Shown piece after piece: positions 29,907-35,966 of a DNA stretch of 64,000 nucleotides. Made by a program: the position numbers and the translations under genes. The notes under the pieces were generated by a model. That model was not told the origin of the DNA and made no database searches. It saw nothing but the letters and a program-made list of their open reading frames with translations. The stretch covers positions 3,072,001-3,136,000 of the forward strand of contig CBDCJH010000002.1 of assembly GCA_965217775.1 (NCBI GenBank). The letters run 5' to 3'. This DNA comes from Acidobacteriota bacterium. Lineage in GTDB: Bacteria > Acidobacteriota > UBA6911 > RPQK01 > JAJDTT01. Positions within the stretch are counted from its first letter, which is position 1; every line of letters starts with the position of its first letter.

Positions 29907-31148
29907 ATGGCTGGTCGGGCGCAGGGACGGTTGCACCACGCTCTTGACCCGACGGGCGGATCTTGGGGGCTCGCCGTCGGGTTGCTGTGCCTGTGGCTCC
30001 CGGTTCAAGCCGCCGGCGCCGGAATCCGCGACATTACCTGGACACCAGGAAAACCGCTGCCCTGGCCCACCAAGGGACAGGCCCAGGCCGTGCTGGGCGA
30101 CCAGATCGTGGCGGCGGGAGCCCCGGGATATCCAGGATGGAACCCCAGAGAGAACACTCGGGAACGCGGCAGGCACAACAGCGTCTGGCTCTTCGACACC
30201 CGTTCCAACCGGTACCGGATTCTGCCTGCTGCCCCTGTGGGTCTGAGCTGGCCTCAAGGCGTGTCGGTGGGCGACGATTTCTACCTGCTGACGGGAACCG
30301 TCCGCTGGCCCCAGGACCGGCTGGACATCACGACCAATCGCGTGTTTCGGCTTTCCCGCAGGGCGGGAGAATGGCGGTGGCGGGAGATGCCGTCGTTGAT
30401 CATCGGACGCTTCCTGGCGGCCGCAGTCTCCTCGGGAACATCCATCGTCGTCCTGGGAGGCCAAGCCTCCTACGGAGCATCCCCTTTCACCGGAGACCAC
30501 CCCGGCGTCTACATCAACGCGGTGGAGATCTTCGATACGACCGATCCCTTCCGCGGGTGGAGGGAGCTTCCTCCCATTCCCGGCTATGGCCGCGAGTCCA
30601 TGGCCGCCGTCTCCATCGGCGAGAAGGTGTACGTATTCGGAGGCTTCTACGTCAACTATGCCGAAGCAGGCGACGATTACCACCCGCATCGCCGGCATGG
30701 GGGCGACGCGTACGTGCTGAACCTCCGCTCCTTGCGCTGGCGGAGGCTTCCCGACCTGCCCTTTCCTGCCGGCGGCTGGGAAGCGGCCGTGCACCGGGAC
30801 CGCTACGTCATCATCGCCGGGGGGATGAGAGACTACCCCGTGGACCATCCCTACGCGTACGCCGATCAGATCCCCGGCCGGCCCGCTCCCAACTTCGAGG
30901 TGCTGGTGTTCGACGCCGAAGAGGAGGCCTACCGGATCTTGCCCACGAAGATTCCTCCCTACCGGCCCCCTCCCGAGATGAGGCACAAGGCCCTGGACGT
31001 CGACTGGATCGATTTCTCCCGGGGTGTCTACCGGCTGGCCGCCGAGTTGAGCCTGGTGCGGGGCAAGCTTTATCTGGCCGGAGGAGAGGTCATCAGTCCG
31101 GCCAACGTTACCGACGAGGTCCTGGTGGGGACCATCATCGAGGATTGA
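29907..31148 (+). CDS. Secreted Kelch-repeat beta-propeller protein (NanM-like fold)
   Basis: KVYVFGG, IVVLGG, WRRLPDLP, WRELPPIP repeats; signal peptide. Start uncertain (29862 or 29907). Confidence 0.85.
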   Translation: MAGRAQGRLHHALDPTGGSWGLAVGLLCLWLPVQAAGAGIRDITWTPGKPLPWPTKGQAQAVLGDQIVAAGAPGYPGWNPRENTRERGRHNSVWLFDTRSNRYRILPAAPVGLSWPQGVSVGDDFYLLTGTVRWPQDRLDITTNRVFRLSRRAGEWRWREMPSLIIGRFLAAAVSSGTSIVVLGGQASYGASPFTGDHPGVYINAVEIFDTTDPFRGWRELPPIPGYGRESMAAVSIGEKVYVFGGFYVNYAEAGDDYHPHRRHGGDAYVLNLRSLRWRRLPDLPFPAGGWEAAVHRDRYVIIAGGMRDYPVDHPYAYADQIPGRPAPNFEVLVFDAEEEAYRILPTKIPPYRPPPEMRHKALDVDWIDFSRGVYRLAAELSLVRGKLYLAGGEVISPANVTDEVLVGTIIED

Positions 31149-31153
31149 GCGCC

Positions 31154-32422
31154 ATGGCCCACCCCGAACGGCTGCCGGGAGCCGACCATAAACGCCGAAC
31201 GGTCCTGACCCTGACTCTGCTGTTGCCGGCACTCTGCCTGGCCTGCGGTGAAGGCGTCGATGAGGTGCCGGAGATCCTCGACATCACCTGGGAAATGGGC
31301 CCCTCCATGCCCTGGCCCACGAAGGGACAGGCGCAAGCGACCATCGGCGATCTGATCCTGGCGGCCGGCGCGCCCGGCTTTCCGGGCTGGGAGCCGTCGA
31401 GCCAGCGCTCCACGGGCAAGGGATGGCAGATCCGGGACCGGGGAAGGCACGTCTCGGGTTGGATCCTGGACACCCGGACCCAGGAGTACGGTTTGTTGCC
31501 CGAGTTGCCGGTGGGCATCAAGTGGCCTCAGGGCGCCACGGTGGGGGAGGACTTCTACGTCTTTACCGGTTGGGTGATCTGGCCCGAGGAGCAGAACGAC
31601 AACACCAGTAATCGAATGTTCCGTCTTTCCGGAGCCGGGGACCGGAAGCAGTGGGAGGAACTTCCGTCCCTCCGAGTCGGCCGTTTTCTGCCCGGCGCCG
31701 CCGTCAGCGGCACCACCATCGTGGTGGTCGGTGGACAGGCGACCTTCGGCGCCCAACCCTTCATGGGCGATCATCCCGGAGCCTACGTCAACTCGGTGGA
31801 AGCCTTCGATACGGCCGATCCCGGCGCCGGATGGCGGGATCTGCCGCCACTCCCGGGCATGGGCCGCGAGTCAGCCGCCACGACCGCCGTCGGTGACGAC
31901 ATCTACGTCTTCGGCGGGGACTACGTCAACTACGCCGAATCCACGAACGGCCGGTTCGAGGGTCACCTGCGCCATTGCGCGGACGGCTACGTCCTCAACC
32001 TCAAGACCCTGCGCTGGCGGAGACTCCCCGACCTTCCCTTTCCGGTTCACGGGATGGAAGCCGTCGCCTACCGGGACCGGTTCATCATCATGGCCGGCGG
32101 CATCAAGGACTATCCGGTGGACCATCCGTACCGCTACAAGGACCGGATCCCCGAGGTGCGCTCCCCCAACTTCGACGTCCTGGTGTTCGACACGGTGGAG
32201 AAAACCTACCGGACCCTTCCCTCCAAAATCCTTCCCTTTCCGGTCCACCCCGAGCGGGAGCAACAGATCCGGGAAGCCACCGGCATCGACCTCTCGAACG
32301 GGGTCTACCGGCTGGCGGCGGAACTGAGCCTGGTCGGAAAGAAGCTGTACCTTTGCGGCGGGGAGGTCATCAGCCCCCACAACGTCACCGAAGAGGTGGT
32401 GGTCGGAACCATCGTCGAGTGA
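31154..32422 (+). CDS. Kelch-repeat lipoprotein, paralogue of the upstream gene
   Basis: Lipobox CLAC; shares PWPTKGQAQA, GDHPG.Y.N.VE.FDT, GVYRLAAELSLV, GGEVISP.NVT.EV.VGTI. Confidence 0.85.
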   Translation: MAHPERLPGADHKRRTVLTLTLLLPALCLACGEGVDEVPEILDITWEMGPSMPWPTKGQAQATIGDLILAAGAPGFPGWEPSSQRSTGKGWQIRDRGRHVSGWILDTRTQEYGLLPELPVGIKWPQGATVGEDFYVFTGWVIWPEEQNDNTSNRMFRLSGAGDRKQWEELPSLRVGRFLPGAAVSGTTIVVVGGQATFGAQPFMGDHPGAYVNSVEAFDTADPGAGWRDLPPLPGMGRESAATTAVGDDIYVFGGDYVNYAESTNGRFEGHLRHCADGYVLNLKTLRWRRLPDLPFPVHGMEAVAYRDRFIIMAGGIKDYPVDHPYRYKDRIPEVRSPNFDVLVFDTVEKTYRTLPSKILPFPVHPEREQQIREATGIDLSNGVYRLAAELSLVGKKLYLCGGEVISPHNVTEEVVVGTIVE

Positions 32423-32449
32423 GGAGCCTCCCATCGCAAAGCGATGGCA

Positions 32450-32516
32450 TGGAGAGGCGACTTTCTTGTCGCCGATTGAGAGCGGCGGCTTTCTTGCCGC
32501 CCACTGGGCGACTGGA
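32450..32516. repeat. GGAG-type REP cluster (BIME-like), left part
   Basis: GGAGAGGCGACTTTCTTGTCGCC, GAGAGCGGCGGCTTTCTTGCCGCC, then a half REP GGGCGACTGGA cut by the intron. Confidence 0.8.
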
Positions 32517-34433
32517 GTCACGGTAGGAACGGCAGTTTCCTGCCGCCCCCCGCACAGATCCGGACGTGCCCGTTAAGGCATCCGGCTCCTACCTTGGGTG
32601 TGGACGGCCAGCGGAACCGCTGCCCCGGCCACGGGTGACGGATCTTCACGGATGGCCAGAGCAATTCCGTCATCCGTCGCAACCGTCCCCAGCTGAAGCG
32701 GTCGCGTTGGGACCGGCGGCGCAAGGCTCGCAGCCACCGCCGTTGCAGCAGATAGCAGAAACCTCGCAGCCAGCGCGTACTCCCCGGAACCGCAATATAG
32801 TTCAGCCAGCCGTTCAGGACCCGGCTCAACCATTTCCCGACCTCCCAGTGATCCGCGTGCCGTTGTCTCCACAGCCTCTCCCCCACCCGTTGCAGGGTCC
32901 GGTTCATCCGTTTCGCGCTTGGCTTCCGCCCCAGCCGGAAGCGTCCCTTCCGGGTCTTCGCACAGTAGTGCGTGAACCCCAGAAAGTCGAACGTCTCCGG
33001 TTTCCGCTCCCCGCGTCGTCGCCGATCCGCTGCCGCAAATCGTCCGAACTCCACCAGTCGCGTCTTTTCCGGGTGCAGTTCCAGCCCGAACTCGGCGCAC
33101 CGTTCCCCCAGGTCTCGGAGAAACCGTTTCGCGTCCGCCCGTCTCTGGAATCCGGCCACGAAGTCGTCCGCATATCGCACCAGGATCGCTTCGCCTTTCG
33201 GGACTCGTGGGCGCCACGTCCGATGGAACCATTGGTCCAGCACGTAGTGCAGGTACACGTTGGCCATGACCGGCGAGACGTTGGCGCCCTGAGGCGTCCC
33301 TCTCCCCGTGTCCGACCAGGTCCCTTCTTCCATCACGCCGGCGTTCAGCCACTTGCGCAGCAGCCGCAGCACCCGCCGGTCTCCGATCCGCCGTTCCACG
33401 AACTGCATCAGGCAGTCCCGGTCGATCGCATCAAAGAACGTCCGAATGTCCGCGTCCACGATCCAATTGACTTTCCGCCGTTCGATCCCGTAGGCCAGTG
33501 CATCCAGCGCGTCATGCGCCTTCCGTCCGGGCCGGAACCCGTAGCTGAGCCCGAGAAACTCCGCCTCGTAAATCGGCGTTAGGAGCTCGTCCACGACTGC
33601 CTTCTGGAGGATCTTGTCCTCCAGCGCGGCCACGCCGAGCGGTCGTGTCCTTCCATCCGGCTTGGGGATGTTCACCCGCCGGACGGGAGGCGCTCGGTAC
33701 GCGCCCCGGTGCACGCGGCGATGCAGGTCCAGCAGTCGCTCTTCCAGCTTCGCCCCGTACTCCTCCCACCGTACCCCGTCGATTCCCGGGGCAGCATCCT
33801 TCCTCAGTCCGAGGTAGGCGCGGCGCAGGGCCTCCACAGTGATATGGTGCAGCAGCGCGGTCAGTCGCTCCTTGGGGTTTCTCGCGATCGCTCGCCGTAT
33901 CCGGTCCACCGCTTGGGACACGCTCCCCCGACTCTGCGTCCGGCGCGTGCTTTGGCTCACCGAATTCCCCTTGGTTCCATCCCTTCGCTCCACCGGCTCC
34001 GCCGAGGGTCGCCCCTCTTTGTTCGCCCGCTTCATCGCTACTATGGATGAATCCGATTGCTTCGTTCCGTCCATCATGAGTTTCGGGTTACTCCTTTCTC
34101 ATGCGACCCCGGGGCGACCCCCCGGGGTGAAATGAAGCCCTCCCAGGTCCCGGAACAAGATTTGCGTACGTGCCTGGGTTCTTTGACACCGCGGAGCCCG
34201 GCCGGCCCTCACCTGGGCGGTCCAGCCGGTGTTGCCTTCGACCGCGACTACAGCCTCGGCACTTCCGATCATGGAGCTTTCGATGCTCAATAGCCTGCCC
34301 ATACGCACCGCTACCGACGCTTCGCCGACACCCTCACGGGTGCCCACGCACGGCTCGCGGAGAAACGTGGATGGTTAGTCCTTCGTTTCGGCGGACTTCC
34401 ACCGCCTATCTTGTGCCAGTTAGCCTGGCGCAC
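32517..34433 (-). mobile_element. Group II intron (IIB-type, probably bacterial class E)
   Basis: 5' GTGCG at 34433; domain V GAGCCGGATGC...GCACGTCCGGATC (about 32556-32589); domain VI ends ...CCTACCGTGAC at 32517; RT ORF inside. Class assignment tentative. Confidence 0.93.
32518..34077 (-). CDS. ltrA: Group II intron reverse transcriptase/maturase, no En domain
   Basis: AAPGIDG, IPKPDGRTRPLG, SYGFRPGR, DADIRTFFD, GTPQG, RYADD, FDFLGF; no HNH motif. Confidence 0.96.
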   Translation of the reverse strand: MMDGTKQSDSSIVAMKRANKEGRPSAEPVERRDGTKGNSVSQSTRRTQSRGSVSQAVDRIRRAIARNPKERLTALLHHITVEALRRAYLGLRKDAAPGIDGVRWEEYGAKLEERLLDLHRRVHRGAYRAPPVRRVNIPKPDGRTRPLGVAALEDKILQKAVVDELLTPIYEAEFLGLSYGFRPGRKAHDALDALAYGIERRKVNWIVDADIRTFFDAIDRDCLMQFVERRIGDRRVLRLLRKWLNAGVMEEGTWSDTGRGTPQGANVSPVMANVYLHYVLDQWFHRTWRPRVPKGEAILVRYADDFVAGFQRRADAKRFLRDLGERCAEFGLELHPEKTRLVEFGRFAAADRRRRGERKPETFDFLGFTHYCAKTRKGRFRLGRKPSAKRMNRTLQRVGERLWRQRHADHWEVGKWLSRVLNGWLNYIAVPGSTRWLRGFCYLLQRRWLRALRRRSQRDRFSWGRLRRMTELLWPSVKIRHPWPGQRFRWPSTPKVGAGCLNGHVRICAGGGRKLPFLP

Positions 34434-34472
34434 AATCGCCCCTCCTGTGGGCGACAGGGATGTCGCCCCTCC
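34434..34472. repeat. GGAG-type REP cluster, right part
   Basis: Half REP AATCGCCCCTCC and full GGGCGACAGGGATGTCGCCCCTCC. Confidence 0.8.
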
Positions 34473-35966
34473 TCAAAGCAGCGCTCGGGCGCTTCGGGGC
34501 GGAATTACCCGAAATCCATAGATCGTGGCCTGCTTCAGATGCAGACGAATGCTGAAGGCCCCCTGGGCCACCACCGGCGCCAGATTCTCCCGCCCCTCCC
34601 AGACCACTTCCTGTTGATGCCCGTTGCCGGTCAAGGGCCGGCAGTTCTCGCGTGAGTAACCCGGGATGATCCTGCCCTGGGCATCCATGAGCTCGGCCCG
34701 GATCTCGCCGCCCTCGGCTTCCGCGTTCAGCAGCAGTCCCGGCTCCCGGTCCTTGGCCAGGAGGAGCCGGGTGGTCAACGTCCCCTCGGTCCCTGCCCTC
34801 CAGCCGGCGAACCCTCCCTGCTGGTACAGCGCCAGACCCACCCCTCTCGTCCCCTCCCAGTCGTGCAGGGAGTGGTCGCTGCCCGCATAGAAGACGGCCA
34901 TCCGGCCGTCGACCACGGCCTCCGCGGGGATCGGCCGAACCGAGCCGGCATCCCATGCTCCCGCGCTGGTGTCTGCAAAATAACCGTCGCGGAATCGCGT
35001 CCAATCGATTCCGTCCCGGCTCAGGCCCAACTGTCCCCGGAAGATCTCGTTCTCCGAGTCGTAGCCCTCCCCGTACATGACGTAGACGTCCCGGGCCCGG
35101 CTGTATTTGAAGATGCCGGGACCATAGATCTGCCATGCCGGAGGATCCCGTTCGTCGAGCGTGTGAACCGTGACCGGCGCCGACCAGTGAAACGCGTCCG
35201 GGCTCGTGGCACGTCCGATGGACCGTTTGCCCCGGACGTGGGTTCGAAAGTAACCGGCGTAGAGGCCGATCCGGTCGTCCCAGAAGAAGAGGTTGTGGGT
35301 GTCGAAGCCCCCCAGACGGTTGACGTACGGGGTGAATTCCCAACGGATTCCGTCGGCGGAGTAACCGATTCCCACGCCCCGGCCCCGGAAGTCCCAGCGA
35401 TTGAGCATCATCTTGTAGCGCCGGCCGGGGTCCGCTTCCGCATAGTCCTTCACCACCCAGTAGACGGGCGTTCCCCGCGGGCGCTCGTTGGGGTCCAGGA
35501 ACAGGATGTTGTTGTCCTTGGAACCCTGGAAGTCCACCAGTCCCAACTCCGGTTTCTCCCACCGGATGCCGTCGGAGGACTGGGCATAGAGGCAATGGCT
35601 GCGGTTGACCCCCTCCTCGGTCCGGCCCAGGATCTGGTACCACATCCGGTAGAGCCCCTCCTCCTCGTCGTGCAGGATGGCCACGTAGTTGAGGATCCCC
35701 TGACGCTCCCAGGGACGGTCGATGACCAGAAGGGGGTTGGCAGGGTGTTTTTCAAGCCGCGCCTGCACCAGCTCCAAGCCCTCCCGGCTCCGGACCAGCC
35801 GGTCGTCATGCAGCAACAGCACCTGCTGGCGGTTCAGCACCAGTGGCTCCGTTGCGGACGGAGGATCGGCAATGGGCCCGCAACCGGAGCCGGCTCCCAT
35901 CAGAAGTACGCCGCAGATCAAGGCGGCGGGACCGGCAGGTCCAAGCTGGAGTGGTTTTCTGGTCAT
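34473..35966 (-). CDS. Five-bladed beta-propeller glycoside-hydrolase-like lipoprotein (GH32/43/130-like)
   Basis: KHPANPLL, YRMWY, Asp-boxes S.DGI.W, FDTHNLFFWD, LLLNAEAEGGEIRAEL. Confidence 0.8.
   Translation of the reverse strand: MTRKPLQLGPAGPAALICGVLLMGAGSGCGPIADPPSATEPLVLNRQQVLLLHDDRLVRSREGLELVQARLEKHPANPLLVIDRPWERQGILNYVAILHDEEEGLYRMWYQILGRTEEGVNRSHCLYAQSSDGIRWEKPELGLVDFQGSKDNNILFLDPNERPRGTPVYWVVKDYAEADPGRRYKMMLNRWDFRGRGVGIGYSADGIRWEFTPYVNRLGGFDTHNLFFWDDRIGLYAGYFRTHVRGKRSIGRATSPDAFHWSAPVTVHTLDERDPPAWQIYGPGIFKYSRARDVYVMYGEGYDSENEIFRGQLGLSRDGIDWTRFRDGYFADTSAGAWDAGSVRPIPAEAVVDGRMAVFYAGSDHSLHDWEGTRGVGLALYQQGGFAGWRAGTEGTLTTRLLLAKDREPGLLLNAEAEGGEIRAELMDAQGRIIPGYSRENCRPLTGNGHQQEVVWEGRENLAPVVAQGAFSIRLHLKQATIYGFRVIPPRSARALL

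What the first reader, a model, noticed from the sequence alone, without database searches (positions are those of the whole stretch)
32517..34446. Group II intron whose EBS1/EBS2 read the REP consensus: a REP-homing retroelement
Seen: removing the intron restores a REP palindrome on the - strand, GGAGGGGCGATT|TCCAGTCGCCC, inside a 4-REP cluster between convergent genes. The putative EBS1 AGUCGC (34244-34249, in the GCCGA..GAAGGC-bounded hairpin) pairs with IBS1 GCGATT with one G-T wobble and perfectly with GCGACT of a sister REP. The putative EBS2 GCUCCA (34272-34277) is complementary to TGGAGC, the GGAG foot of this REP family. The ideal target TGGAGC-G-GCGACT resembles the REP consensus more than the occupied site does. 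Established: IIC introns target terminator or attC hairpins, and several IS target REPs. Inference: an En-less IIB intron has specialised on a multicopy, neutral intergenic repeat, which I do not recognise as well described. EBS placement is by analogy, not computed folding.
Basis: partly seen in the sequence, partly recalled or inferred. Interest (0 to 1): 0.8.

Follow-up and report, generated by a model that had tools for sequence, protein, structure and literature searches.

The report
Group II intron that homes into REPs
A self-splicing mobile intron in this bacterium copies itself specifically into a short palindromic repeat scattered between genes, by base-pairing with one arm of the repeat, and its relatives in sister genomes have re-tuned that pairing to whichever repeat family is abundant there.

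Summary
Window 34433..32517 (- strand) is a complete 1917-nt group II intron (Rfam RF02005, 166 bits; domain V/VI; 519-aa RT/maturase, no endonuclease domain found). It splits the hairpin GGAGGGGCGATT|TCCAGTCGCCC.

The genome holds 10 near-identical full-length copies and 6 derivatives. 15 of 16 sit at the same point of a GGAG-footed hairpin repeat that is mostly extragenic (about 150 copies) and accompanied by RAYT-like genes. Five congeneric genomes have the window's orthologous intergenic region without the intron.

EBS1, EBS2 and EBS3 are fixed by covariation, not folding. IBS1-EBS1 pairs in 97.7% of cells over 57 sequences. Sister subfamilies carry EBS1 variants that match other REP families, including two families expanded to about 270-300 copies in one congener.

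One copy interrupts an ORF at a non-hairpin site that matches IBS2 and IBS1, so recognition is by sequence, not hairpin shape. All 10 full-length copies lie on the leading-strand sequence, which is the lagging-strand template; empty REPs split 46:47.

Verdict: a REP-homing, En-less IIB-type retroelement. The mechanism is known; the target class and its co-diversification with REPs were not found in eight literature searches. Splicing and mobility remain untested.

The parts
32517..34433 (-). Complete group II intron, 1917 nt (5' GTGCGCC ... CCGTGAC 3')
   Evidence: Rfam RF02005 group-II-D1D4-6, 166.4 bits, model positions 1-225 of 225. RF00029 domain V/VI, 37.5 bits, E 3e-5, below the gathering score of 40. 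BLAST limits are shared by 10 genomic copies.
32518..34077 (-). Intron-encoded protein, 519 aa: reverse transcriptase/maturase with no endonuclease domain detected. The frame runs on through domains V-VI to the last intron bases.
   Evidence: Pfam RVT_1 only, E 5e-35. NCBIfam TIGR04416 group II RT/maturase, 351 bits against a cut-off of 300. The frame is open for 519 codons with YADD in all 10 copies. Relatives end about 20-25 residues earlier.
34273..34277 (-). EBS2 (GCUCC; core CUCC pairs with the GGAG foot of the REP)
   Evidence: Lies in an unpaired stretch of the Rfam consensus structure. Changes to CCUAC and CAUGC in subfamilies whose 5' exons read GTAGG and GCATG. 73% of cells paired over 57 sequences.
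34244..34249 (-). EBS1 (AGUCGC), in the loop of the GCCGA...GAAGGC hairpin
   Evidence: Hairpin loop in the Rfam consensus. 97.7% of cells paired with 5' exon positions -6..-1. All 6 pairs show changes on both sides.
34184..34184 (-). EBS3 (A, intron position 250), pairing with the first 3' exon base
   Evidence: A, G or U in three subfamilies whose 3' exons begin with T, C or A. Complementary to exon +1 in most distant relatives by my reading.
32557..32588 (-). Domain V, followed by domain VI (about 32520-32554) with the likely branch-point A at 32524
   Evidence: RF00029 alignment. The branch A is assigned by position in that alignment; this is inference.
34434..34445 (-). 5' exon, the left half of the split REP: IBS2 GGAGG (34445-34441), spacer G, IBS1 GCGATT (34439-34434)
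   Evidence: Sequence. Pairs with EBS2 and EBS1 with one G-U wobble. The same layout is seen at 15 of 16 elements.
32506..32516 (-). 3' exon, the right half of the split REP (TCCAGTCGCCC). IBS3 is the T at 32516.
   Evidence: Sequence. An uninterrupted copy of the whole REP lies next to the RAYT-like gene and at the orthologous site of G002.
34449..34472 (-). Neighbouring REP (GGAGGGGCGACATCCCTGTCGCCC), directly after the stop codon of the upstream ORF
   Evidence: Sequence.
32451..32474 (+). REP on the opposite strand (GGAGAGGCGACTTTCTTGTCGCCG). It is a full match to IBS2 and IBS1 but is empty.
   Evidence: Sequence. It lies on the lagging-strand sequence of this replichore, which fits the strand bias.
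32478..32502 (+). REP on the opposite strand (GAGAGCGGCGGCTTTCTTGCCGCCC)
   Evidence: Sequence.
34473..35966 (-). Upstream ORF (497 aa, no Pfam family), co-oriented with the intron, which therefore lies in its 3' untranslated region
   Evidence: GC3 0.82.
29963..32422 (+). Convergent downstream ORF (819 aa, Kelch repeats)

Best explanation
This is an endonuclease-less, IIB-type mobile group II intron whose natural homing site is a REP (repetitive extragenic palindrome).

Inferred mechanism. The spliced intron RNA, bound to its RT/maturase, base-pairs with one strand of the REP. EBS2 (CUCC) pairs with the single-stranded GGAG foot just 5' of the hairpin. EBS1 (AGUCGC) pairs with the 5' arm plus the first loop base (GCGRCT). 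EBS3 (A) pairs with the next loop base (T). The RNA reverse-splices after the first loop nucleotide.

The protein has no endonuclease. cDNA synthesis is therefore presumably primed at replication forks, with insertion into the strand that templates lagging-strand synthesis.

Because the target is multicopy and extragenic, the intron reaches 10 or more copies at low cost. Point changes in EBS1 and EBS2 retarget daughter lineages to other REP families.

Shown here: anatomy, insertion sites, empty orthologous sites, EBS/IBS covariation and strand bias.

Inferred, not shown: splicing, reverse splicing, fork priming and present-day activity.
For: 1. Intron identity. RF02005 scores 166 bits, domain V/VI is present, and the protein matches TIGR04416 at 351 bits.

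2. Copies. There are 10 full-length copies at 98.7-100% identity, all with an open 519-codon frame and YADD.

3. Sites in this genome. 15 of 16 elements are flanked by GGAG-N-GGCGRCT | TTCTTGYCGCC-type hairpin halves. 9 of the 10 full-length copies are among them.

4. Sites in congeners. 21 of 25 elements with both junctions defined lie in such hairpins.

5. The target is a REP.
- 152-156 perfect hairpins with consensus GGAGCGGCGRC-TTTCTT-GYCGCC.
- 16% of them lie under a crude coding mask that covers 70% of the genome.
- Two Y1-transposase genes match NCBIfam REP_Tyr_transpos best, at 70 and 78 bits. One of them is followed directly by the window's REP variant.

6. Empty sites. The orthologous intergenic region in 5 of 5 congeners searched lacks the intron.

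7. Covariation.
- Main lineage: EBS1 AGUCGC and EBS2 GCUCC against GGAGC-G-GCGACT.
- G005 variants: AACCCC against GGGGTT, AGUCCC against GGGACT, AAUCGC against GCGATT.
- A further subfamily: GGGUGC and CCUAC against GTAGG-G-GCACCC.
- G004: GGAUGC and CAUGC against GCATG-G-GCATCT.
- EBS3 A, G or U against exon +1 T, C or A.

8. EBS1 variants track REP abundance. The GGGGGTT and GGGGACT REP families have 272 and 299 copies in G005, against 9-31 in four other genomes. Only G005 introns carry the matching EBS1.

9. Sequence, not shape. Copy C2:3931636 sits in frame and in sense inside an ORF at GGAGATGCGGCT|G, with no hairpin.

10. Strand bias.
- All 10 full-length copies lie on the leading-strand sequence, with the origin placed by GC skew and dnaA.
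- Occupied GGAGNGGCGRCT sites split 11:1 (leading:lagging) against 46:47 for empty hairpins, Fisher p = 0.006.
- The same orientation holds for 7 of 7 (G002), 6 of 7 (G005), 7 of 7 (G006) and 4 of 4 (G004) elements, if the terminus lies opposite dnaA.
Against: - No splicing, RNA or mobility data. The sequencing-run tool could not be reached.
- Some copies in different genomes have similar 3' flanks (L133 and own C2:4695235; L135 and L117). Part of the copy number is therefore inherited, not independent insertion, and kin are not independent observations.
- IBS1 lies in the hairpin stem. A folded REP on single-stranded DNA would hide it. How the RNP gains access is unknown.
- The fifth IBS2-EBS2 pair fails in 32 of 57 sequences.
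- The RAYT-like proteins score just under the NCBIfam cut-off: 70 and 78 bits against 80.
- The terminus positions of the congeners are assumed, not measured.
- One ORF-less element (C2:1903834) and one G005 element lie on the other strand.
- Absence of an endonuclease domain rests on Pfam and NCBIfam silence only.
Confidence: 0.85

Rival explanations
1. Structure-directed insertion as in IIC introns. The RNP would recognise the DNA hairpin as such (like a terminator or attC stem-loop), and base pairing would play a minor part.
For: Nearly all sites are hairpins, and the insertion point is constant relative to the stem: after the first loop base. IIC introns use terminator and attC stem-loops according to Zimmerly & Semper 2015 (PMC4424553, passages read). 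A 2021 paper suggests that attC-like structures lie upstream of IIB/class E intron fragments (PMC7923331, abstract and section 12 read).
Against: - A full EBS2 and a 6-nt EBS1 covary with the exon. By recall, IIC introns lack EBS2 and use 3-4 nt of IBS1.
- The insertion point is inside the loop, not after the stem.
- Non-hairpin sites that match IBS2 and IBS1 are used: C2:3931636, L122 and the three G004 copies.
- Only one REP orientation is used, the one that presents the GGAG foot and the arm on the targeted strand.
- The RNA matches RF02005, not a IIC model.
Confidence: 0.05
2. Passive spread. One ancestral insertion in a REP was multiplied together with the REP by the RAYT, by recombination or by segmental duplication. 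The intron would not target REPs itself.
For: REPs are thought to be mobilised by RAYTs, and RAYT-like genes are present. L126 and L127 in G005 share long flanks, as do the three G004 copies, and look like duplicated segments.
Against: - In this genome the flanks outside the roughly 25-nt REP are unrelated at the 10 full-length copies.
- The REP variants differ between sites (GGCGAC, GGCGGC and GGGCGA stems; TTTCTT and TCCAG loops), while the introns are 98.7-100% identical.
- A hairpin whose arms lie 1.9 kb apart cannot fold as a RAYT substrate (inference).
- Passive spread does not explain the EBS/IBS covariation, the in-ORF site or the strand bias.
Confidence: 0.03
3. Coincidental overlap. 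The intron has an ordinary homing site elsewhere, such as a gene or another mobile element. The REP merely happens to contain a similar 12-mer and acts as an ectopic sink.
For: - Relatives at 52-70% RT identity sit at many unrelated sites, including just after domain V of other introns.
- The G004 variant uses a non-REP repeated site.
- In P. putida KT2440 only 2 of 9 group II intron copies were REP-associated (Tobes & Pareja 2006, PMC1525189, table passage read).
Against: - No alternative non-REP homing site appears among the 16 elements of this genome. The single non-REP site is unique and is a poorer match.
- At least four different EBS1 specificities in one genus each match a different REP family, and they follow that family's abundance. 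An accident would not repeat in this way.
Confidence: 0.06

Closest known systems
RmInt1 of Sinorhizobium meliloti (En-less IIB-type intron that homes into the multicopy insertion sequence ISRm2011-2)
   Same: No endonuclease domain. Target recognition through EBS1, EBS2 and EBS3. A multicopy, dispensable homing site. Preference for the lagging-strand template. The RmInt1 properties are partly recalled and partly taken from the abstracts of PMC4615759 and PMC4075523 in the listing.
   Different: The target here is a 25-nt REP hairpin present in 100-300 copies, not an IS gene. The RT is about 500 aa with a long N-terminal extension. Its phylogenetic class was not assigned here.
IIC (class C) introns inserting after intrinsic terminators or into integron attC sites
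   Same: En-less introns that exploit abundant palindromic DNA motifs outside genes, which gives a low fitness cost.
   Different: IIC introns read the stem-loop as structure plus a very short IBS1, and insert downstream of it or at attC (PMC4424553). This intron has EBS2, a 6-nt EBS1 and EBS3, inserts inside the loop, and also uses non-hairpin sites.
Insertion sequences that target REPs (for example ISPpu9, ISPpu10, ISPa11, ISPsy8, IS1397; IS481 in P. fluorescens SBW25)
   Same: A mobile element specialised on REPs, inserting at a fixed position and in a fixed orientation within the REP (PMC1525189, table passage; PMC11708052, figure-legend passage).
   Different: Those are DNA transposons recognised by a transposase protein. 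Here recognition is by RNA-DNA base pairing of a retroelement, so a few point mutations can reprogram it, and this has visibly happened.
Group II intron of Pseudomonas putida KT2440
   Same: A bacterial group II intron recorded next to REPs.
   Different: Only 2 of 9 copies were REP-associated, and no specificity was claimed (PMC1525189, table passage). The additional files of that paper could not be read.

Membership tests
Mobile group II intron (ribozyme plus intron-encoded RT/maturase) | Conserved RNA domains: 5' GUGYG, domain I core, domain V, domain VI with a bulged A, 3' AY | tested here: met
   The intron starts GUGCG and ends AC. RF02005 scores 166 bits over the full model. RF00029 domain V/VI scores 37.5 bits, E 3e-5, just under the gathering score of 40.
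Mobile group II intron (ribozyme plus intron-encoded RT/maturase) | ORF in domain IV encoding an RT with YADD and a maturase domain | tested here: met
   RVT_1 E 5e-35. TIGR04416 scores 351 bits against a cut-off of 300, covering residues 83-455. YADD is present in all 10 copies.
Mobile group II intron (ribozyme plus intron-encoded RT/maturase) | Self-splicing and retromobility | not testable with these tools
   Indirect support only: near-identical copies, empty orthologous sites in 5 of 5 congeners, and exon pairing maintained.
IIB structural class | EBS1-IBS1 and EBS2-IBS2 pairings with the 5' exon | tested here: met
   IBS1-EBS1 pairs in 97.7% of cells and IBS2-EBS2 in 73%. All 11 pairs show changes on both sides. 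0 of 500 shuffles reach the observed score. 57 sequences.
IIB structural class | EBS3-IBS3 pairing with the first 3' exon base (rather than the delta-delta' pairing of IIA) | tested here: met
   Intron position 250 is A, G or U where exon +1 is T, C or A. It is complementary in most distant relatives (read by eye, not counted formally).
Named IEP phylogenetic class (bacterial D, E, F, g1-g6 and so on) | Placement in a reference RT tree | not tested
   No reference set was at hand. The nearest annotated plasmid-borne RTs are 52-58% identical and carry no class name.
IIC / class C introns | No EBS2, a 3-4 nt IBS1, insertion downstream of a terminator or attC stem-loop | tested here: not met
   EBS2 is present and covaries, EBS1 is 6 nt, and insertion is inside the loop.
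En-less introns that retrohome at replication forks | IEP lacks the D/En (HNH) domain | tested here: met
   Pfam gives RVT_1 only. NCBIfam reports no nuclease family. This is absence of a hit, not proof of absence.
En-less introns that retrohome at replication forks | Insertion biased to the strand that templates lagging-strand synthesis | tested here: met
   All 10 full-length copies. Occupied sites 11:1 against empty sites 46:47, Fisher p = 0.006. For the congeners the terminus position is assumed.
REP / RAYT system (the target) | Short imperfect palindrome with a conserved 5' tetranucleotide foot, in many copies, extragenic, often clustered | tested here: met
   152-156 perfect hairpins. 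The GGAG foot is conserved: for example G in 133 of 156 and A in 135 of 156 at two foot positions. 16% lie under a coding mask that covers 70% of the genome. Clusters are seen in the window and at C2:6086483. The likeness of the foot to the GTAG of described REPs is recalled, not tested.
REP / RAYT system (the target) | A cognate REP-associated tyrosine transposase gene flanked by the REP | tested here: inconclusive
   Two Y1_Tnp proteins are over the Pfam cut-off. Their best NCBIfam match is REP_Tyr_transpos, at 70 and 78 bits against a cut-off of 80. One has a REP directly downstream only; the other is flanked by a related GGGGGGAC-type REP.

The most novel reading that the evidence does not exclude
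A genus-wide lineage of group II introns lives as a hyperparasite of REP/RAYT repeats and radiates with them. Single-base changes in EBS1, EBS2 and EBS3 create daughter specificities that each colonise a different REP family, and they follow whichever family has expanded in a given genome. Each insertion splits a REP hairpin and so probably disables it as a RAYT substrate. After insertion the exon may itself be remodelled towards the intron: A/C-mismatched arms occur at 3 of 13 occupied sites and at 0 of 95 empty ones. That would make REP families and intron specificities a co-evolving pair of selfish elements, readable directly from the EBS/IBS code.
Probability: 0.5. Interest if true: 0.75.

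Novelty: new variant of a known kind. Interest (0 to 1): 0.6.

Why it matters
Reviews list three target strategies for bacterial group II introns: specific homing sites, sites after terminators, and attC sites (PMC4424553). A IIB-type intron whose homing site is a REP adds a fourth way of spreading at low cost.

It also gives a natural example of retargeting that can be read from sequence. At least four to five EBS1 specificities occur in one genus, each matched to a REP family.

It links two kinds of selfish DNA that both act on single-stranded DNA at replication forks. It offers a natural test of how an RNP invades a target that can fold on itself.

It suggests that REPs could serve as ready-made multicopy landing pads for engineered introns.

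The practical importance is modest. The main value is for mobile-element biology and for genome annotation, where REP-embedded introns and their 640-nt ORF-less derivatives are easily missed.

Tried and rejected
- Thermodynamic folding of domain I gave z = 0.09 and partly paired the EBS1 hexamer. I rejected it as a test. Covariation was used instead.
- Transcription context from a crude GC3 ORF caller. The upstream gene is clearly co-oriented and close only at copies C2:3106433, C2:2727491 and C2:5165874. The rest were ambiguous, so no claim is made.
- Intron class. PMC3552965 passages and plasmid hits gave no class.
- Bryobacterales MAG relatives (L027, L031-L033) looked like hairpin insertions, but their flanks are alike for more than 100 nt. 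This is a longer repeat, not a REP.
- Pfam found nothing in the two halves of the ORF interrupted at C2:3931636.
- The look-up of sequencing runs was unreachable four times, so no reads were laid and expression and splicing could not be examined.
- No structure or complex prediction was attempted, because no claim needs one.
- Literature. Eight searches found no paper describing REP-specific homing of a group II intron. These include the additional files of PMC1525189 and Fig. S10 of PMC7923331.
Full report
**1. What is at the coordinates**

On the - strand, window 34433..32517 is a complete group II intron of 1917 nt (GTGCGCC...CCGTGAC).
- Rfam's model RF02005 (group-II-D1D4-6) matches intron positions 35-257 end to end at 166 bits.
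- With relaxed thresholds the domain V/VI model RF00029 matches the last 74 nt at 37.5 bits, E 3e-5, just under its gathering score of 40.
- The ORF 34077..32518 encodes a 519-aa protein. Pfam finds RVT_1 only. NCBIfam's group II RT/maturase equivalog scores 351 bits against a cut-off of 300.
- No nuclease family was reported.
- In relatives the protein ends about 20-25 residues earlier. Here the frame runs on through domains V-VI to the intron's last bases.

**2. The split palindrome**

The 5' exon ends ...GGAGGGGCGATT (34445..34434) and the 3' exon begins TCCAGTCGCCC (32516..32506). Joined, they form a hairpin with arms GGGCGA/TCGCCC.

The intergenic region lies between the co-oriented ORF 34473..35966 (-) and the convergent Kelch-repeat ORF 29963..32422 (+). 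It holds two such repeats on the - strand, two on the + strand, and one further hairpin.

**3. Copies and their sites**

The window's genome (6.43 Mb in two contigs, 62% G+C) contains:
- 10 full-length copies at 98.7-100% identity;
- one copy with an internal deletion;
- four ORF-less derivatives of about 643 nt;
- one 67-nt 5' fragment.

All 10 full-length copies keep an open 519-codon frame with YADD. One, C2:2727491, has an unresolved pair of indels near the start codon.

Nine of the 10 full-length copies, and 15 of all 16 elements, are flanked by the two halves of a hairpin of the type GGAG-N-GGCGRCT | TTCTTGYCGCC. Insertion is always after the first loop base and always in the same orientation relative to the repeat. 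Sequences beyond the repeat are unrelated between sites.

The exception, C2:3931636, sits at CCAGGAGATGCGGCT|GACCG. There it interrupts an ORF in frame and in sense, reading ...LDIQEMR-L-TESGFDLVFTK... across the junction. That site keeps GGAG and GCGGCT but has no hairpin.

**4. The target is a REP**

- A strict search for perfect 5-bp arms with a pyrimidine-rich loop finds 152-156 copies. Their consensus is GGAGCGGCGRC-TTTCTT-GYCGCC-GA. The GGAG foot lies outside the stem and is conserved.
- Only 16% of these hairpins fall under a crude coding mask that covers 70% of the chromosome.
- The genome encodes Y1-transposase genes. Two of them (233 and 223 aa) match NCBIfam's REP-associated tyrosine transposase best, at 70 and 78 bits against a cut-off of 80.
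- The second gene is followed directly by GGAGGGGCGATTTCCAGTCGCCC, the very variant split in the window. The first is flanked by a related GGGGGGAC-type repeat.
- A second hairpin family, (GTAG)GGGCACCC-N4-8-GGGTGCCC, has 62 copies.

**5. Empty sites**

The 3' end of the upstream gene finds its orthologue in 5 of 5 congeneric genomes searched, at 86-90% identity. In four of them the downstream convergent gene was also found. Their intergenic regions measure 83-244 nt, are full of REPs, and hold no intron. The fifth (G001) shows no intron in the 260 nt examined. In G002 the first repeat after the stop codon is an intact GGAGGGGCGATTTCCAATCGCCC. The window's intron is therefore an insertion into a pre-existing REP.

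**6. Exon-binding sites**

Folding one sequence is uninformative: z = 0.09, and the minimum-energy structure partly pairs the EBS1 hexamer. The Rfam consensus places AGUCGC in a hairpin loop and GCUCC in an unpaired stretch.

The decisive evidence is covariation. All 8 other genomes of the genus that were searched contain the intron or pieces of it. That call scored only 7 candidates per genome, so copy numbers there are lower bounds.

I fetched 31 such loci. In 25 both junctions could be defined. 21 of these lie in hairpin repeats and 4 do not: L122 and three G004 copies with identical long flanks.

| Lineage | EBS2 | EBS1 | 5' exon | EBS3 | Exon +1 |
|---|---|---|---|---|---|
| Main (G000, G002, G006) | GCUCC | AGUCGC | GGAGC-G-GCGACT | A | T |
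| G005, full-length | GCUCC | AACCCC | GGAGT-G-GGGGTT | A | T |
| G005, ORF-less | GCUCC | AGUCCC | ...GGGACT | A | T |
| G005, ORF-less | GCUCC | AAUCGC | ...GCGATT | A | T |
| Subfamily in G000, G006, G007 and a Latescibacterota MAG | CCUAC | GGGUGC | GTAGG-G-GCACCC \| CTTGTGGGTGCCC | G | C |
| G004 | CAUGC | GGAUGC | GCATG-G-GCATCT | U | A |

Intron position 250 (window 34184) is the only D1 column with the A/G/U pattern that is complementary to exon +1 T/C/A.

A formal count used 57 distinct sequences: these plus relatives with 52-70% RT identity from many phyla.
- IBS1-EBS1 pairs in 97.7% of cells, and all six pairs change on both sides.
- IBS2-EBS2 pairs in 73% of cells. The pair nearest the spacer fails in 32 of 57 sequences.
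- Overall 86.5% of cells are paired, against 51.4% in shuffles (0 of 500 reach it) and 36-47% when the partner is slid.
- Rows are related, so the shuffle control overstates the result. The slide control does not.

**7. Specificity follows REP abundance**

Pattern counts in five genomes:

| REP family | G000 | G002 | G005 | G006 | G004 |
|---|---|---|---|---|---|
| GGAGNGGCGRCT..GYCGCC | 95 | 65 | 44 | 166 | 66 |
| GGAGNGGGGGTT..ACCCCC | 20 | 21 | 272 | 19 | 11 |
| GGAGNGGGGACT..GTCCCC | 9 | 31 | 299 | 15 | 22 |

The reversed-pattern controls gave 0-1 match. Only G005, where the last two families have expanded, carries introns with EBS1 AACCCC and AGUCCC.

**8. Strand bias**

- Cumulative GC skew puts the origin near 4.95 Mb and the terminus near 1.65 Mb of contig C2. 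dnaA lies at 5.01 Mb.
- All 10 full-length copies have their sense strand on the leading-strand sequence. That is the parental strand that templates lagging-strand synthesis.
- REP hairpins in the target orientation are unbiased, 78:74.
- For the motif GGAGNGGCGRCT, occupied sites split 11:1 and empty hairpins 46:47 (Fisher p = 0.006).
- The window shows this directly. REP 32451..32474 on the + strand is a full IBS match and is empty.
- With dnaA positions and a terminus assumed opposite, the orientation also holds for 7 of 7 (G002), 6 of 7 (G005), 7 of 7 (G006) and 4 of 4 (G004) elements.
- This is the pattern described for endonuclease-less introns that use replication forks (PMC4424553 passage; details recalled).

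**9. Mechanism**

Shown: a IIB-type, apparently En-less intron sits at a fixed point of REPs. Its EBS code matches the REP foot, the 5' arm and the first loop bases. Empty orthologous sites exist. Orientation follows replication.

Inferred: the RNP pairs EBS2 with the unstructured GGAG foot, invades the 5' arm with EBS1, reverse-splices after the first loop base, and is copied using a nascent strand at the fork.

The use of non-hairpin sites argues that the hairpin is not needed. Whether it hinders is open, since IBS1 is in the stem.

**10. Rivals**

- IIC-like structure recognition is contradicted by EBS2, the 6-nt EBS1, insertion inside the loop, and the non-hairpin sites.
- Passive multiplication with REPs is contradicted by the unrelated flanks, by different REP variants around near-identical introns, and by the covariation.
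- Accidental resemblance to a REP is contradicted by several independent specificities that each match a REP family.
- Some copies in different genomes share 3' flanks (L133 with own C2:4695235; L135 with L117). Part of the distribution is therefore inherited.

**11. Comparison with what is known**

The mechanism is the known one for En-less IIB-type introns such as RmInt1. The strategy resembles IIC introns at terminators and attC, and IS elements that target REPs.

In print I found two relevant items:
- a table entry giving 2 of 9 REP-associated group II intron copies in P. putida KT2440 (PMC1525189);
- a review stating three known target specificities: homing sites, terminators and attC (PMC4424553).

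Eight full-text searches found no description of REP homing. The library omits most subscription journals, and supplements were closed.

The wider RT clade sits at many unrelated sites, several just after domain V of another intron. REP homing is therefore a lineage-specific specialisation. The IEP class was not assigned.

**12. Verdict**

It is a new variant of a known kind: a known mechanism, a new target class, and visible co-diversification with that target. Splicing and mobility remain to be shown.

Noticed in passing
G000 C2:4405417-4407265 (two copies about 1.2 kb apart), C2:3223516-3224157, C2:1903834-1904588; L122-L127 (G005); L132-L138 (G006): There are ORF-less derivatives of about 643 nt (intron positions 1-551 joined to 1825-1917). 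They keep EBS/IBS pairing with their own flanks. This genome has 4, G005 at least 6 and G006 at least 7. G006 has no cognate RT: the best match is 36% identical, from other intron types. These copies are therefore either relics or are mobilised by something else.
   Followed up: partly
G000 C2:5165874, C2:4407265, C2:4406059: At occupied sites the 5' arm has A, which pairs perfectly with EBS1, while the 3' arm still has C. This is an A/C mismatch. It occurs at 3 of 13 occupied sites and at 0 of 95 empty REPs. By my own hand calculation, not run in a call, the Fisher p is about 0.001. Possible causes are post-insertion change of IBS1 towards the intron, exon co-conversion, or recombination between copies.
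   Followed up: partly
G000 C2:3929720-3931636 (locus L145 1221-3137): One full-length copy interrupts an ORF in frame and in sense at a REP-like 12-mer with no hairpin. The host gene would need splicing to be expressed. Pfam finds no family in either half.
   Followed up: partly
L128-L130 (G004): An intron variant 89% identical to the window copy has changed EBS1, EBS2 and EBS3 (GGAUGC, CAUGC, U). It sits three times at ...GGAGGAGATGCATGGGCATCT|ATAAGG... with identical flanks of more than 60 nt. It was probably retargeted to another repeated element. G004's 66 canonical REPs are not known to be occupied.
   Followed up: no
L006, L009, L010, L041 (MAGs of several phyla); L013 and L014: Relatives with 64-71% RT identity are inserted exactly after a domain V-like hairpin ending GGATCTG or GGGTCTG, that is, between domains V and VI of another group II intron (nested introns). 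L011 and L012 use the same GGATCTG in other contexts. L013 and L014 show two intron copies in tandem.
   Followed up: no
G005 chromosome, for example C1:134729-134783 and 341724-341778: The two REP families expanded in G005 (272 and 299 copies) often lie as inverted pairs about 10 nt apart, and in regularly spaced arrays with periods of about 145-195 nt. This looks like REPIN doublets and tandem arrays.
   Followed up: no
window 32518-32590: The RT reading frame has lost the stop used by its relatives. It continues through domains V and VI and ends with the TGA that overlaps the last four intron bases. This adds about 25 residues.
   Followed up: no
G000 C2:3645111-3646257: The copy that BLAST reported as 5'-truncated keeps the first 14 intron bases next to an intact 5' REP half and then jumps to position 771. 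It is an internal deletion, not a truncation.
   Followed up: no
window 32431-32447: A further perfect hairpin, CCATCGC-TTT-GCGATGG, lies just after the stop codon of the Kelch-repeat ORF. It is unlike the REP families and may be that gene's terminator.
   Followed up: no
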